A stretch of 64,000 bases of DNA from the NCBI GenBank assembly GCA_951406725.2, contig OX597826.1, positions 43,896,001-43,960,000 on the forward strand. Reading direction: 5' to 3'. The notes beneath the pieces were generated by a model. That model did not search any database. It was given only the letters and a program-made list of their open reading frames with translations, and was not told the DNA's origin. This stretch comes from Octopus vulgaris. Taxonomy: Eukaryota. Made by a program: the position numbers and the translations under genes. Below are positions 10,801 through 62,888 of this stretch, in pieces (position 1 is the first letter of the stretch; each line of letters opens with the position of its first letter).

Positions 10801-11211
10801 GCGTCTACGAGGAGTAAATGAATGTGAATACGTCGTGCATAAAATATGTGTGAAAAAAGATATTCACATATCTTAAAAAGGAATATTATGAATATTGTTT
10901 TTACACACTTCGACTGTTTCCATTTATGTTTTAATGTAGATTTGCAAAACAGATTTTTTTCTCCTTTTTAACTGTTTTTCTTATTCTTAATTGAAACAGC
11001 TATTTAAAAGAAATGTTGTTTGAAAATGTTTAATGGTTTAATAAACAGAATATAGAAGTACGTATGTACAAGTTACTAATTTGTATGTGTACATGCATAT
11101 ATACATATATACACACATACGAATGTATTATGTACATCGGTTCAACAAAAAGTGGCTAATAGAAACAGTATCAGGGTTGAAAGGCCATAAATAAAAACTG
11201 GTATCGAATTG

Positions 11212-11627
11212 TTTGCCTCACCCTATCCACGATTTGCTCCAGCAGAGCCACAGTTCACATTCTGAAACAAGTAATAGATATACACACAAGTAACAGATGT
11301 ATAGAAGTAATAGATATACATACAAACATACATGCATATATGTGTGTGTTTGTAAGTATGCGTGCGTGCACTGTGTTTGTATTTGTATGTGTGTGTGTGT
11401 GTAAACACGAATTTGCATGTTTGCCTCACCCTATCCACGATTTGCTCCAGCAGAGCCACAGTTCACATTCTGAAACAAGTAATAGATATACACACAAGTA
11501 ACAGATGTATAGAAGTAATAGATATACATACAAACATACATGCATATATGTGTGTGTTTGTAAGTATGCGTGCGTGCACTGTGTTTGTATTTGTATGTGT
11601 GTGTGTGTGTAAACACGAATTTGCATG
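11212..11627. repeat. near-perfect 208-bp tandem duplication
   Basis: TTTGCCTCACCCTATCCACG... starts at 11212 and again at about 11420; units appear identical through AATTTGCATG. Confidence 0.93.
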
Positions 11628-13869: not shown

Positions 13870-14150
13870 ATAATAAATCCATAAAAGAAAAAAGACGAAG
13901 AAACAAACACACAAAGAAAAAACGTAACAACGCGAGGACATGATACATGTAAAGTATTAGCAGACGCTCAGGGAAGGAAAAAAGATGGTTTAACGTTTCG
14001 AGCAACGCTCTTCTTCAGAAACAATGGAAAGTCCAATAGAAAGGAAGACGGAGAAAGAAGATCGCCAACGATTCATGTGGTTACATTTTGAAATGACTGG
14101 AAGGGAATGGGTGAATAAAAAATGTTCTTTCAAAGACAGGGGAGTGTAAT
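13870..14150 (-). mobile_element. non-autonomous Penelope-like terminal (pLTR-like) module
   Basis: Contains hammerhead motif; tail CAACGCGAGGAC...GACGCTCAGG recurs at 15820-15915 and inverted at 47054-47125, there abutting (TA)n. Confidence 0.65.
13986..14024 (-). ncRNA. minimal type I hammerhead ribozyme
   Basis: Minus strand GTTT-CTGAAGA-A-GAGC(GTT)GCTC-GAAA-CG-TT-AAAC; palindromic AACGTT stem III. Confidence 0.75.
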
Positions 14151-25581: not shown

Positions 25582-26082
25582 GCACGTACATACATGTTTT
25601 ATATTTTATCGCTTGCTTCAGTCATTGGACTGCGGCAATGCTGGAGCAATGTCTCCATGGTATGTTTTTGGTCGAAGAAATCGCTCCAACGTACTTATTT
25701 TAGTACCAACATTAGGTCCAGTACATATTCTTCCGTTCCTACTGCCGAACTGTTAAGTAACTGGGACGTAAACGAAGCAACACCAGTCGGCAAACGTGGT
25801 GGTGGTGCATGTCAAACAAAAATGTCCGTCTACCAAATTCCCTAATAAATCATTTGGTTGGCCCGGGGCCATTAGTCTTTATTAGTTGAGATTAGATCAA
25901 CTGCTCACATCCCTCAAGAACATTTTGGGAAGGGGAGGACACAGTTGTATAACCTCCCGCCAAGTATTTGACTGGTGTTATTTCATCGAAGAAGAATAAA
26001 ATCATTGCAGCGTGGATGGTGTTTGTAAGCCATTTAAGAAACACACAAAAGCCGTTCGATTCACTTCAACAGTTAAGTTTAA

Positions 26083-26133
26083 TTTGTCAAAATATTTTCG
26101 TCGCTTTAAGACCGCGACCTGTTCACTGACAAA
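26083..26133 (-). ncRNA. minimal type I hammerhead ribozyme with G3-C8 core
   Basis: Minus strand TTTGTCA-GTGAACA-G-GTCGC(GGTCTTAAA)GCGAC-GAAA-ATATTT-TGACAAA; perfect 7-bp stem I, 5-bp stem II, palindromic AATATT stem III. Confidence 0.72.
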
Positions 26134-26484
26134 AATCCGTGCTGCATCTTCCACGCTGCAATTGTTTTCGTTTCAGCACACGATCTCAGATCAAATCACT
26201 TGCTAAGCAAGTACATCTCCGTAAAAAGAATAAAATCAAAATACAGATTTCAACTAAGGGCGTAAAAGAAAACGAGTGACAAACTAAAGGAAAATATTTC
26301 CGTCACGATCTGTCTGTCTGATTGCTTGTCAATTTGTATGTCTGTCTGCCTATATGTCTAGCTGTCTGTCTGTCTTTATTTCTACATATCTAACTGCTTA
26401 CTTATCCCTATCACTCTGTCCTGCTATCTCTATCAATCTCTACTATCCTATATAATTAGAGTATACATGAATATTATATATATC

Positions 26485-30911: not shown

Positions 30912-31677
30912 GGCGGCGAGCTAGCAGAAACGTTAGCACGCCAGACGAAATGCTTAGCGGTATTTCGTCTGCCGCTACGTTCTCAGTTCAAATTCCGCCG
31001 TGGTCGACTTTGCCTTTCATCCGTTCGGGGTCGATAAATTAAGTACCAGTTACGCACTGGGGTCGATATAATCGACTTAATCAGTTTGTCTTTCCTTGTT
31101 TGTCCCCTCTGTGTTTAGCCCATTGTGGGTAGTAAAGAAATAGGTATTTCGTCTGCCGTTACGTTCTGAGTTCAAATCCGCTGAGGTCGACTTTGACTTT
31201 CATCCTTTCGGGGTCGATTAATTAAGTACCAGTTACGCACTGGGGTCTATGTAATCGATTTAATCCGTTTGTCTGTCCTTGTTTGTCCCCTCTGTGTTTA
31301 GCCTCTTGTGGGTAGTAAAGAAATAGGTATTTCGTCTGCTGTTACGTTCTGAGTTCGACTTTGCCTTTCATCCTTTCGGGGTCGATAAATTAAGTACCAG
31401 TTACGCACTGGAGTCGATGTAATCGACTTAATTCCTTTGTCTGTCCTTGTTTGTCCCCTCTGTGTTTAGCCTCTTGTGGGTAGTAAAGAAATAGGTATTT
31501 CGTCTGCTGTTACGTTCTGAGTTCAAATTCCGCCGAGGTCGACTTTGCCTTTCATCCTTTCGGGGTTGATAAATTAAGTACCAGTTACGCACTGGAGTCG
31601 ATGTAATCGACTTAATTCCTTTGTCTGTCTTTGCTTGCCACCTCTATGTTTTGCCCCTTGAGGGTAATAAAGAAATA
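30912..31677 (+). mobile_element. family B SINE concatemer (one head, four tandem bodies)
   Basis: GGTATTTCGTCTGC restarts at 30959, 31143, 31326 and 31494. Confidence 0.92.
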
Positions 31678-32665: not shown

Positions 32666-32669
32666 TGTG

Positions 32670-33158
32670 TGGAGCCGCGTGGCTTAGTGGTTAGGGTGTC
32701 AGCATCATGATCGTAAGATGGTAGTTTCGATTCCCGGGCGACGCGTTGTGCTCTTGAGCAAAACACTTCATTTCACGTTGCTCCAGTCCACTCAGCTGGC
32801 AAAAATGAATTACGCTGCGATGGACTGGCGTCCCGTCCAGCTGGGGAATACATGCGTCATAGAAACCGGGAAACCGGGCCCATGAGCCTGGCTAGGCTTT
32901 AAAACGGTGCAGTGGAGGCACATGGCTTAGTGGTTAGGGTGTCAGCATCATGATCGTAAGATTGTGGTTTCGATACCTGAACCGGGCAACGCGTTGTGTT
33001 CTTGAGCAAAACACTTCATTTCACGCTGTTCCAGTCCACTCAGCTGGCAGACTGAGTAACGCTGCGATGGAGTGGCGTCCCGACCGGCTGGGGAACACAT
33101 GCGCCATAGAAACCGGGAAACCGGGCCCATGAGCCTGACTAAGCTTTAAAAGGGCGCT
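32670..33158 (+). mobile_element. two head-to-tail family C-type SINEs
   Basis: TGGCTTAGTGGTTAGGGTGTCAGCATCATGATCG near 32680 and 32922; shared tail GAAACCGGGAAACCGGGCCCATGAGCC. Confidence 0.9.
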
Positions 33159-55905: not shown

Positions 55906-55960
55906 AAAAAATGAAGTTCGAAAATGCTGCTGTATTATACAATTTTTAATTTTTATATAT

Positions 55961-56001
55961 ACATTATAACATGTTTCAGTTCCTGAAATGAACCTTATCA
56001 A
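55961..56001 (-). ncRNA. minimal hammerhead motif with U3-A8 core
   Basis: Minus strand TTGATAA-GGTTC(ATTTCAG)GAACT-GAAA-CATG-TT; palindromic ACATGT; stem I weak. Confidence 0.55.
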
Positions 56002-56883
56002 AAAAAGATATATATAAAAAGAGACAGCTCATGCCGTCAAACACAAGAAATTCATTTATAATACACAACGGAGTCAGACATCTTAGAGTTCATGTATAGT
56101 TGATATATAGTTCATGTATAGTTGATATATAGTTTGAAGTATATTTCAAAGTGTTCGATGCAGTGGCCCACGGTGGCGATACGTATTCAATACAAAAAAC
56201 AGATCAAAGTGGTGGAAAGCGGTCAATACAGAAGATTGATGTTTCCGAAAGAGCGAGGAATTAATTTTTACCTTAAGCAATTGTGATGACCCATGGTGGA
56301 AGTTCGCTGGGTGGTTCTAGTGATTTTTTGTGAAATGCTTGGTTTTATAATGCCTGTTAGGTGGTCAATCTAGCGTAGCGTGACGTCATCAATGTTTTGA
56401 CCAATCGTTTCGTTAGTTGGCTTTAATCAAGTGGAACGGGACGTCATCATTATTTTGACCAATCGGTGCATTATAACTCCCTCTTGTTTGTTTCCTGTCT
56501 TGACCAGTCGCTTCGTTAGTCAAGCATAGCGGGATGTCATTCAGATTCTGCCCAATCACGACTTATAGCTACATTAGATCTGTCCCCTGTCTGTACTTGT
56601 TAGGTGACTATTCAAGCAGAAAAGGACGTCATCAATATTCTGACTAATGACTGTCCCCTGTTTGTATCCTGTCCATTCTAGCAGAGCTAGACGTCATCAA
56701 CTTGTTGACCAATCAGAATCGGGTCTGACCCTTAGCTGTATCGTATGTATCAGGGTCAGATTTGCACGAAAGAATTTTTTTCCCTTTTTTTACTAAGGCA
56801 TATTTCCGTCAGAGTGAGTGTCTGTTTGAAGTAGCGGTCGTGGTGAAATTTGGTTCTCCTTTTCGGAGGACTTATCTTTTGTT

Positions 56884-57810
56884 TTAGTATTCCTGGCCCA
56901 GGGTGTTTAAACTTGGTCTAAATTTTTTTATGAAATATAGTTCTTTATTTTGGCGTTGTGTGAAGGTTGCGTTGTCACTGAATTTATAGAGCGGGTTAGT
57001 TGTAAATTTCGGATTTACATTTCCAGCACATCTATCTATGTGTCCGCTGACCGGTATTTTGCGGTAATCAGGGTTTCTAATTTGTGATTTATGCACCGCC
57101 ATCCTGTTACGTAAGCTATTTTTTGTATGGCCTATATACTGCCTATTGCAGCCTGCGCATGTTATGACGTAAATTAAGTTTTCTGATGCGCAGGTGAAGT
57201 TTGTTCTAATGGTGAACTGGTGGCCTTGTTCCAGTATAAATTCTGATCCTTCTTTCAAGATGACACAGATTCCGCAGTTGGGCCTTCCACATTTTCTAAC
57301 TGCTGGTTTTGTGGTTGATGTTGAGTGCAGTGTAGCTTGGGTTAAAATCCTTTTCAAGGATTTTGGTTGCCGTTTACTTTTAATGATCGTGTGTGTTTCG
57401 AGGATCCGGTTCATCTTTGGGTCTCCCTTTAGTAGGGCTGTGCTTTGTAGTATGGTGTTGAAGGCCTCATTGTTGAGTGGGTTGTGTGTAGAGATGTAGG
57501 GAAGGGTTTTTAATTGTTCTTTCTTTTTTGGTTTTGTTTGTCTCAGGTCTTCTATACTTAATTTAAGTACCCGTTGGATTGCACTGTCTATTAGGGGCTG
57601 TGGATAGTTTCTATTTGTGAGTGTGGTTCTAAGTTCCTGGAGACGTGTGTGTCGGGTGTTTGTGTCTGATATTATGGTGCAAATCCTTCTAGCTAAACAA
57701 AAAGGGACATTCATTCTAGTGTGTCGTGGGTGGCATGAATCAAAGGGTAGGTACTGTTTAGAGTCTGTCGGTTTATAGTAGATATCTGTCTCTATTTTGT
57801 TGCCGGTTAT

Positions 57811-57813
<3 letters not shown>
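56884..57813 (-). CDS. Penelope-like RT C-terminus plus Cys-rich linker plus GIY-YIG endonuclease (partial)
   Basis: TDIYYKPTDSKQYL..SCHP, CGRPNCGIC, NLIYVITCAGCNRQYIGHT..LRNRMAVH, ELYFIKKFRPSLN; the listed N-terminal 22 aa are microsatellite. Confidence 0.93.
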
Positions 57814-57850
<37 letters not shown>

Positions 57851-58421
57851 CATGCATTTATATATGCATTCACACACACAAGTGTATGTGTGTTTGTGTG
57901 CGAAAACGTATATATATCTTCTCTTGTTGATTTGGCATAACTATATGGAAGAATCTATAGCTGCTAGTTGGCTGCGTATCATTAGATACGTATTGTGAAG
58001 ACAACATCGACTACAGAGGAATTAAGCAGAACCTGGGAAATTTTTCAAAAAATAATGAGGCAATCACTATACCCTTTAATTACCTGTTTATTAATCCATC
58101 TGCTGATTTCCTTCCGGATAACATCCTGCTGTTCTTGTTTTACCGCCTTGACATCCAACTATGACAGTAATTACAAATAATTGGTTGTATTACCTTAATC
58201 AGCAAAACTGCACGATTCATTTTGTTAGTTATCGATTGCCTCTTCTCTAAAACCATAATGATACATAGCAACAGATATTGCTGCCAAGAACAACTCGATT
58301 CTAAACATCGCACACAAACAAGCGCGCGTAGTATTTTCTCTTGCTTAAGAAATATAGCTGTATCTTATTTAAATGACGTACGCCTATTTACTTCTTAAAT
58401 ACTGCACCTCAGATTACACAA

Positions 58422-62848: not shown

Positions 62849-62888
62849 ATTTCAATATTTCAGGGTTAGAGCCCTTTCTTCAGGAAAT
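62849..62888 (-). ncRNA. minimal type I hammerhead ribozyme
   Basis: Minus strand ATTTC-CTGAAGA-A-AGGG(CTCTAA)CCCT-GAAA-TA-TT-GAAAT; palindromic AATATT. Confidence 0.75.

What the first reader, a model, noticed from the sequence alone, without database searches (positions are those of the whole stretch)
26083..26133. Natural G3-C8 hammerhead: compensatory swap of the catalytic-core tertiary pair
Seen: minus strand TTTGTCA-GTGAACA-G-GTCGC(9 nt)GCGAC-GAAA-ATATTT-TGACAAA, with perfect stems I and II. The core GUGAACA differs from CUGANGA only at positions 3 and 8. Established: C3 and G8 form a Watson-Crick tertiary pair in the active hammerhead, and the double swap rescues single mutants. Inference: selection has kept a working ribozyme that CUGANGA-based searches would miss. 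With C3-G8 (13986, 62849) and U3-A8 (55995-56001), three pairings occur in this one window. The module is also partly inverted (TGCAGCGTGG at about 26006 versus CCACGCTGCA at 26151), as is typical of PLE ends.
Basis: partly seen in the sequence, partly recalled or inferred. Interest (0 to 1): 0.8.

Follow-up and report, generated by a model that had tools for sequence, protein, structure and literature searches.

The report
Swapped-core hammerhead in active Penelope retroelement
Thousands of copies of a recently mobile jumping gene in this animal genome carry a small hammerhead-shaped RNA in which two paired core letters are exchanged (G3-C8, where its sister family has the usual C3-G8), so it is likely a natural, slowly self-cutting variant so far described only as a laboratory mutant, though cutting has not been shown.

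Summary
Confirmed and extended. Window 26133-26083 (minus) is a minimal type I hammerhead with G3 and C8. It is no single-copy accident: 6,460 of 7,079 genomic matches carry G3-C8. The motif lies in the pseudo-LTR of an autonomous RT + GIY-YIG Penelope-like element (PLE): 30 of 30 best ORF loci carry it, 27 as G3-C8. A sister PLE (54% amino-acid identity) has the homologous hammerhead with C3-G8 (94 of 100 listed rows), so the swap is a reciprocal change between lineages. The window copy is a short, target-site-duplicated, partly inverted insertion of that element's first 208 bases.

Against a fast ribozyme: most copies were made from uncut RNA, within-family double changes look like neutral decay, and the sister's young subfamily has lost A9. 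Cleavage is untested; a small excess of junctions at the cut site is only a hint.

Natural U3-A8 and engineered G3-C8 are published; ten paper searches found no natural G3-C8, but key papers were not held. This scan noted G3-C8 candidates before on other DNA (protist PLEs, phages; not checked here). Verdict: new variant of a known kind.

The parts
26083..26133 (-). Minimal type I hammerhead motif with G3-C8 core
26127..26133 (-). Stem I, 5' strand (7 bp with 26083-26089)
26120..26126 (-). Core positions 3-9; G3 = 26126, C8 = 26121, A9 = 26120; followed by unpaired G (9a) at 26119
26100..26118 (-). Stem-loop II: 5 bp, 9-base loop; the loop differs between subfamilies, the stem does not
26090..26099 (-). 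G12-A13-A14, palindromic stem III half (26096-26091), U17 (26090); predicted cut between 26090 and 26089
   Evidence: cut site inferred from hammerhead numbering
26083..26089 (-). Stem I, 3' strand
26004..26149 (-). Element positions 1-146: from the common 5' end of short copies (inferred capped start) through the hammerhead to the first of two 3' end points
26004..26033 (-). First 10 codons of the PLE ORF (ATG at 26033), cut off by the end of the insertion; homologous to the start of the sister's 1,312-residue frame
26148..26224 (+). Inverted, 5'-truncated second piece (element positions 132-208) ending at the second 3' end point; has no hammerhead
25992..26003 (+). Target-site duplication, left copy (12 bases)
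26226..26237 (+). Target-site duplication, right copy (12 bases)

Best explanation
The motif is the hammerhead of a recently mobile Penelope-like retroelement in which the core pair 3-8 is fixed as G-C instead of C-G, and it likely still self-cleaves, but slowly and only as a dimer or with the element's protein. Shown: anatomy, family-wide fixation, location in the pseudo-LTR between the common 5' end and the ORF start, a C3-G8 sister, and the short-insertion structure of the window copy. Inferred mechanism: the element's RNA begins 60 bases before the cut site; the 6-base palindrome cannot close stem III in one molecule, so two hammerheads (the two pseudo-LTRs of one long transcript, or two RNAs) pair through it; G3 pairs with C8 as C3 does with G8 and places residue 8 in the active site. 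Most RNA escapes cutting, binds the RT-endonuclease and is reverse-transcribed from two internal start points (about 146 and 208) at staggered nicks in AT-rich DNA, giving head-to-head insertions such as this one. A minority is cut, which would trim read-through or tandem transcripts. The window copy has one hammerhead and no promoter region or ORF: it is a dead-end record of the variant, not itself the selected copy.
For: 6,460 of 7,079 matches G3-C8, reversed-pattern control 0. No other letter at 5% or more at positions 3 or 8 in 4 of 4 sequencing runs laid, from four coded organisms (4 of 22 runs listed). 30 of 30 best ORF loci carry the motif about 1.2 kb after the ORF: 27 G3-C8, 2 G3-G8, 1 not parsed; ORF pieces up to 100% identical, frames up to 1,025 residues with GIY-YIG. 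Sister PLE: C3-G8 in 94 of 100 listed rows of 4,544, G3 and C8 in 0 (my count). In a 10-row alignment of both lineages the 3-8 cell is C-G in 8 and G-C in 2, never unpaired; 5 of 15 pairs change on both sides; 82% of cells pair against 28-40% in slid controls (the 2 G-C rows are one event). Subfamily differences hit 5 of 9 loop II positions and 0 of 42 other hammerhead positions (Fisher p 5e-5). 7 to 10 of 38 junctions in a 16-position range start at the cut site (my count; p about 0.008 for 7 under a rough uniform null). The C3G/G8C double mutant partly restores cleavage in a PLE hammerhead that needs protein (PMC11167929).
Against: No cleavage or expression data. 82 of 121 pieces start at element positions 1-20, upstream of the hammerhead, and only 2 at 61-70: templates were mostly uncut. 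The 19 double changes include 0 C3-G8 and 11 non-Watson-Crick combinations, close to about 14 expected by independent decay. Conservation of the hammerhead against the rest of the element outside loop II is not significant (0 of 42 versus 10 of 157, p 0.12), and half of those loci were picked by a pattern covering positions 17-36. The junction excess is weak: position 55 has 6 of 38. The sister's young subfamily has C9 instead of A9 (84 of 100 rows), which suggests relaxed constraint in this clade. In the anole PLE, hammerhead mutants did not affect insertion in vitro and no RNA ends mapped to the cut site (PMC11167929). The all-AU stem III duplex is worth only -0.2 kcal/mol alone.
Confidence: 0.65

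Rival explanations
1. The motif no longer cleaves in any useful way. It is kept as a folded RNA element (protein binding, RNA folding near the RT start sites) or is simply carried along in the master lineage, and the swap drifted in.
For: Templates mostly uncut; hammerhead mutants insert normally in the anole PLE in vitro (PMC11167929); sister's young subfamily carries C9; Naiad PLEs multiply without canonical hammerheads (PMC8557442); no pairing bias among decayed copies.
Against: Of the conserved core positions only the two that pair have changed, and reciprocally; all other core letters are shared with a sister at 54% protein identity; loop II varies while core and stems do not; small excess of junctions at the cut site.
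Confidence: 0.22
2. Cleavage serves translation: the cut removes the capped 60-base leader with its upstream ATG and leaves an RNA whose ORF starts 56 bases later, so cut RNA makes protein and uncut RNA is copied.
For: The hammerhead lies between the common 5' end and the ORF start; self-cleavage in 5' UTRs drives cap-independent translation in some RNA viruses and in plant reporters (PMC13725137, abstract and passages).
Against: No data for PLEs or animals; nothing here shows translation or a cap directly; it needs cleavage, which is itself untested.
Confidence: 0.08
3. G3 was forced by an overlapping DNA or RNA signal (it completes a pyrimidine-rich AG, like a splice acceptor, just before the core) and C8 followed as compensation.
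For: The sequence directly shows a T-run followed by CAG ending at G3; an intron end maps to helix I in the fly Penelope element (PMC4209133).
Against: A stronger acceptor-like or initiator-like site with a branch-point-like motif lies 21 bases upstream; no spliced junction to this AG was seen among the 15 of 39 joints shown; not otherwise tested.
Confidence: 0.05

Closest known systems
Minimal type I hammerheads in pseudo-LTRs of Penelope-like elements (Cervera and de la Pena 2014, PMC4209133)
   Same: No stable stem III, palindromic 15.2-16.2 region, unpaired base between A9 and G10.1, G10.1-C11.1 pair, thousands of dispersed single motifs, location in the PLE pseudo-LTR.
   Different: Their consensus core is C3-G8 with a U3-A8 variant in Schistosoma; here G3-C8. 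Their extra base is A, C or U; here G. Stem I is longer (7 bp against 4-5).
Hammerhead of the anole Poseidon element PAc (Frangieh et al. 2024, PMC11167929)
   Same: Hammerhead next to the ORF start, two internal reverse-transcription start points that give a 'tail', AT-rich targets, uncut RNA as main template.
   Different: PAc is naturally C3-G8 and G3-C8 was made as a partial-rescue mutant; here it is the wild type. The ORF starts 56 bases after the cut site instead of inside the hammerhead; the tail is about 60 bases.
Natural core variants of hammerheads (Perreault et al. 2011, PMC3088659)
   Same: Covariation at the 3-8 pair in nature (U3-A8).
   Different: The passages read name only U3-A8; G3-C8 needs two transversions.
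Non-LTR retrozymes (PMC7229834; bioRxiv 10.64898/2026.07.22.740005)
   Same: One locus holds a head-to-tail array of about 30 units of 166 bases, each with the G3-C8 hammerhead.
   Different: The window copy and most others are single or head-to-head PLE end fragments; circular RNA not tested.

Membership tests
Type I hammerhead ribozyme | U4 G5 A6, A9, G12 A13 A14, A15.1-U16.1, H17 | tested here: met
   core list from PMC3088659
Type I hammerhead ribozyme | C at 3 and G at 8 (consensus letters) | tested here: not met
   G3 and C8 in the window and in 6,460 of 7,079 matches
Type I hammerhead ribozyme | Watson-Crick pair possible between 3 and 8 | tested here: met
   G-C; 10 of 10 rows pair across both lineages; the pair itself is inferred from complementarity
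Type I hammerhead ribozyme | Stems I and II | tested here: met
Type I hammerhead ribozyme | Stable stem III in one molecule | tested here: not met
   2 bp with a 2-base loop; unpaired in the fold
Type I hammerhead ribozyme | Match to an Rfam hammerhead model | tested here: not met
   no hammerhead family up to E = 10
Type I hammerhead ribozyme | Site-specific self-cleavage | not testable with these tools
   only contigs were available; junction excess is a weak hint
Minimal (dimer-type) PLE hammerhead | Unpaired base between 9 and 10.1, G10.1-C11.1, palindromic stem III region | tested here: met
   features from PMC4209133; the extra base is G, outside the published H consensus
Minimal (dimer-type) PLE hammerhead | Lies in the pseudo-LTR of a PLE | tested here: met
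   30 of 30 ORF loci
Minimal (dimer-type) PLE hammerhead | Cleaves as a dimer | not testable with these tools
   co-folding gives a strand-swapped dimer but says nothing on activity
Endonuclease-bearing Penelope-like element | One ORF with RT and C-terminal GIY-YIG | tested here: met
   GIY-YIG PF01541 E 1.8e-5 at residues 915-1005; RT motifs read from the alignment with the window's other PLE; no Pfam RT hit
Endonuclease-bearing Penelope-like element | Inverted 5'-truncated copy and tail with two 3' end points | tested here: met
   45 of 67 loci head-to-head; 40 pairs with one short and one long end
Endonuclease-bearing Penelope-like element | Intron in the pseudo-LTR | tested here: inconclusive
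   acceptor-like site at the common 5' end, equally readable as a transcription start
Endonuclease-bearing Penelope-like element | Clade (Neptune, Nematis, Penelope/Poseidon) by RT phylogeny | not tested
   no reference set held; a Cys-rich linker is seen, which PMC8557442 gives for Neptune and Nematis
Non-LTR retrozyme | Head-to-tail units each with a hammerhead | tested here: not met
   window copy is single; met only at one other locus, L002/L061

The most novel reading that the evidence does not exclude
A natural G3-C8 hammerhead, fixed in an active animal retrotransposon, that selection keeps as a deliberately slow switch: uncut capped RNA is reverse-transcribed, cut RNA is routed elsewhere (translation or trimming), and sister PLEs in the same genome reach the same tuning by other core changes (C9, U3-A8). 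The clade would be a natural series for testing what PLE hammerheads do.
Probability: 0.25. Interest if true: 0.75.

Novelty: new variant of a known kind. Interest (0 to 1): 0.55.

Why it matters
The 3-8 tertiary pair is known from crystal structures and laboratory double mutants; nature was known to use C-G and U-A. A G-C pair fixed in thousands of copies, next to a C3-G8 sister, is evolutionary support for the pair and shows that core-pattern searches undercount animal hammerheads by whole families. Because the parent element has near-identical, long-frame copies and the variant needs two transversions through forms reported as inactive, it bears on an open question: whether PLE hammerheads must cut in vivo, and how fast. 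It gives a ready wild-type versus sister comparison for that test.

Tried and rejected
Single-copy mutation or chance fold: rejected. A C3-G8 subfamily of the same element: not found; 0 of 19 double changes; a looser pattern gave 71 matches against 43 for the control, of which 3 are copies of this element with C3-G8 (L143-L145), about what decay of several thousand copies could give. Independent SINE or retrozyme with no parent: rejected once the ORF-linked copies were found. The other active PLE in the window (ORF remnant 56884-57954) as parent: rejected, no similarity to the element in 30 loci and 20% protein identity. A shared sequence after the 3' end in 10 loci is another, older repeat that carries an insertion, not the ORF. 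Expression: no RNA holder listed on record; the four runs laid are contigs and show no RNA ends. A genome count of copies beginning at the cut site gave 56 matches but has no neighbouring-position control and many fit stem I microhomology: inconclusive. Rfam: no hammerhead among the 150 of 246 rows shown for the window or for the local stretch. No solved-structure relative of the ORF. A protein search with the 30-residue ORF start could not be run. No earlier notes on this genome or sequence. Not held, so not read: Lunse 2017 (PMC5785218), Przybilski and Hammann 2007 (PMC1986816), Hammann 2012 (PMC3334697), Weinberg 2015 (PMC4509812), Martick and Scott 2006, Nelson and Uhlenbeck 2008, Lee and York 2008; any of the first four could already list a natural G3-C8.

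Full report
Observation. A scanner that leaves positions 3 and 8 free found it as the best-paired motif of the window, with a 7-bp stem I, an unpaired G after A9, a 5-bp stem II closed by G10.1-C11.1, the GAAA box, a 6-base palindrome and U17. Stems I and II are the minimum-energy fold (z -2.35). Rfam does not see it. The U3-A8 motif at 56001 lies in the pseudo-LTR of a different active PLE, is the same in the 3 copies printed, but has no stem I of 3 bp or more in 30 of 30 loci, so it is a doubtful third pairing; a cleaner U3-A8 motif occurs in L190.

G3-C8 is the family state. The genome (G000, 2.8 Gb; it looks like an octopus genome, which is my guess and comes from no call) holds 7,079 exact matches to a 20-base pattern with 3, 7 and 8 left open, control 0; 6,460 are G3-C8. 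Nineteen have both positions changed: A-T 7, T-G 5, A-G 3, A-A 2, T-A 1, T-T 1, C-G 0 (my count), near the roughly 14 expected from independent decay. A looser pattern for a canonical core with this stem III gave 71 matches against 43 in the control; 3 are copies of this element with C3-G8. In contigs of 4 of the 22 runs listed, from four coded organisms, no other letter reaches 5% at positions 3 or 8. In 99 pieces from 56 loci (4 of 60 dropped: a tandem array and three overlaps), G3 is in 71 of 72 and C8 in 72 of 74; second alleles of 15% or more occur at 5 of 9 loop II positions, 0 of 42 other hammerhead positions and 10 of 157 positions elsewhere (p 5e-5 and 0.12). Half of these loci were chosen by a pattern over positions 17-36, which biases that part.

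What carries it. The motif sits at positions 17-67 of a 208-base unit. In 68 loci, 121 pieces start mostly at positions 1-20 (82) and end near 146 (52 at 141-160) or 208 (59 at 201-208); 45 of 67 loci with a piece are head-to-head pairs, 40 pairs having one short and one long end. 23 of 45 pairs have a non-simple target-site duplication of 8 bases or more and 13 lie in simple repeats. The window copy is such a pair: positions 1-146 on the minus strand (26149-26004), positions 132-208 inverted (26148-26224), inside a 12-base duplication. This matches the two internal reverse-transcription start points and AT-rich targets shown for the anole PLE (PMC11167929, parts 1-2 of 4 read) and the inverted 5' copy with a tail described for PLEs (PMC8557442, passages).

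The parent. About a tenth of 100 listed 5' flanks share an upstream extension. Following it led to an RT + Cys-linker + GIY-YIG ORF. A search with that ORF gave 125 matches, the best 99-100% identical. All 30 best loci carry the unit about 1.2 kb after the ORF: 27 G3-C8, 2 G3-G8, 1 not parsed. The longest frame fetched is 1,025 residues with GIY-YIG at its end; no fetched copy joins the unit to a complete ORF. More diverged ORF copies also show G3-C8 where the core is intact. An ATG 56 bases after the cut site opens a frame homologous to the start of the sister's ORF. 52 of 100 listed flanks have a G just before position 1, where the parent has C or T (my count; some are explained by microhomology); an extra G from copying the cap is my recalled reading, so position 1 as capped start is inferred. 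The same site also looks like a splice acceptor.

The sister. A second active PLE, 54% identical over about 800 residues with 1,312-residue frames, has the homologous hammerhead at the same place. Its pattern has 4,544 matches; among the first 100 rows C3-G8 is in 94, G3 or C8 in none; position 9 is C in 84, A in 14, T in 2 (my count). I aligned 10 motifs (the window, one active parent copy, one C3-G8 copy, 5 of the 14 sister stretches, L146 and L187): the core letters other than 3, 7, 8 and 9 are invariant, the 3-8 cell is C-G in 8 and G-C in 2, and 5 of 15 pairs change on both sides. The rows are related and the swap is one event; outer stem I pairs hold poorly in the sister rows (63% of cells). 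Since C3-G8 is the general consensus (PMC4209133 supplement), G3-C8 is the derived state (inference).

How it likely works. Stem III cannot close in one molecule; PLE minimal hammerheads are proposed to act as dimers with low activity (PMC4209133, parts 1-2 of 4). G8C lowers the rate about 100,000-fold and C3G partly restores it (review PMC8495972, passages); the same partial rescue was shown in a PLE hammerhead that cut only with protein, and whose uncut RNA was the template. One paper notes, data not shown, that a G3-C8 variant depends on residue 17 (PMC3884650, passages). Here too most copies come from uncut RNA. Among 38 junctions whose second piece starts at positions 48-63, 7 to 10 start at the cut site, 6 at position 55 and 1-3 at the others (my count; p about 0.008): a hint of some cleavage, no more; a follow-up count was inconclusive. 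I therefore commit to a slow, dimer- or protein-dependent ribozyme (0.65), with a non-cleaving structural relic as main rival (0.22).

Comparison and novelty. It works like a minimal PLE hammerhead and meets that group's architecture, but fails the literal C3/G8 consensus, so I file it as a variant. Natural U3-A8 is published (PMC3088659, passages; PMC4209133). Ten searches of the held library found G3-C8 only as an engineered mutant. Other papers seen as passages or first part only: PMC6765202, PMC7229834, PMC7761336, PMC6257768, bioRxiv 10.64898/2026.07.22.740005 (part 1 of 5), PMC13725137 (abstract and passages). Of the PMC4209133 supplement I searched the PDF and read part 1 of 3; its other file was not searchable. 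Seven relevant papers were not held, so absence from print is not established. Earlier notes of this scan mention G3-C8 candidates in protist PLEs (with an extra core base) and in phages; I did not check them, and they do not enter the score.

Noticed in passing
L187-L193; G000 pattern matches: The sister PLE's young subfamily has C instead of the conserved A at core position 9 (84 of 100 listed rows; older rows keep A9): a second high-copy core variant in the same clade.
   Followed up: partly
window 55930-57954 (minus): 5'-truncated copy of another very active PLE (781-residue frames elsewhere, up to 100% identical) with repeated promoter-like boxes in its 3' region and a U3-A8 hammerhead-like motif that lacks a clear stem I.
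   Followed up: partly
L002:1610-3245 and L061:1-4100 (G000 C2, about 17.908-17.913 Mb): Head-to-tail array of about 30 units of 166 bases, each with the G3-C8 hammerhead; the same unit junction is in run X5. A transcript would hold many hammerheads in cis, like a retrozyme.
   Followed up: partly
L104-L113: An old head-to-head insertion of the element inside another repeat family (about 80% identity between copies, over 1 kb) that was then amplified with it; G3-C8 is present in these old copies.
   Followed up: partly
rows; L152-L181 just upstream of element position 1: An extra G before position 1 in 52 of 100 listed flanks (possible cap copy); in the parent the same site has a branch-point-like motif and pyrimidine run ending in AG.
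   Followed up: partly
L001-L073 head-to-head pairs: Target-site duplications cluster at 11-13 bases, consistent with a fixed stagger between two nicks.
   Followed up: partly
window 13988-14022 and 62849-62888 (minus); L043, L055, L075, L186, L190: Further minimal hammerheads of other families, with C3-G8 or U3-A8; the genome holds many PLE hammerhead families.
   Followed up: no
window 30959-31677, 32669-33151, 11210-11627: Tandem arrays of 183, 247 and 208-base units, apparently copies of common interspersed repeats.
   Followed up: no
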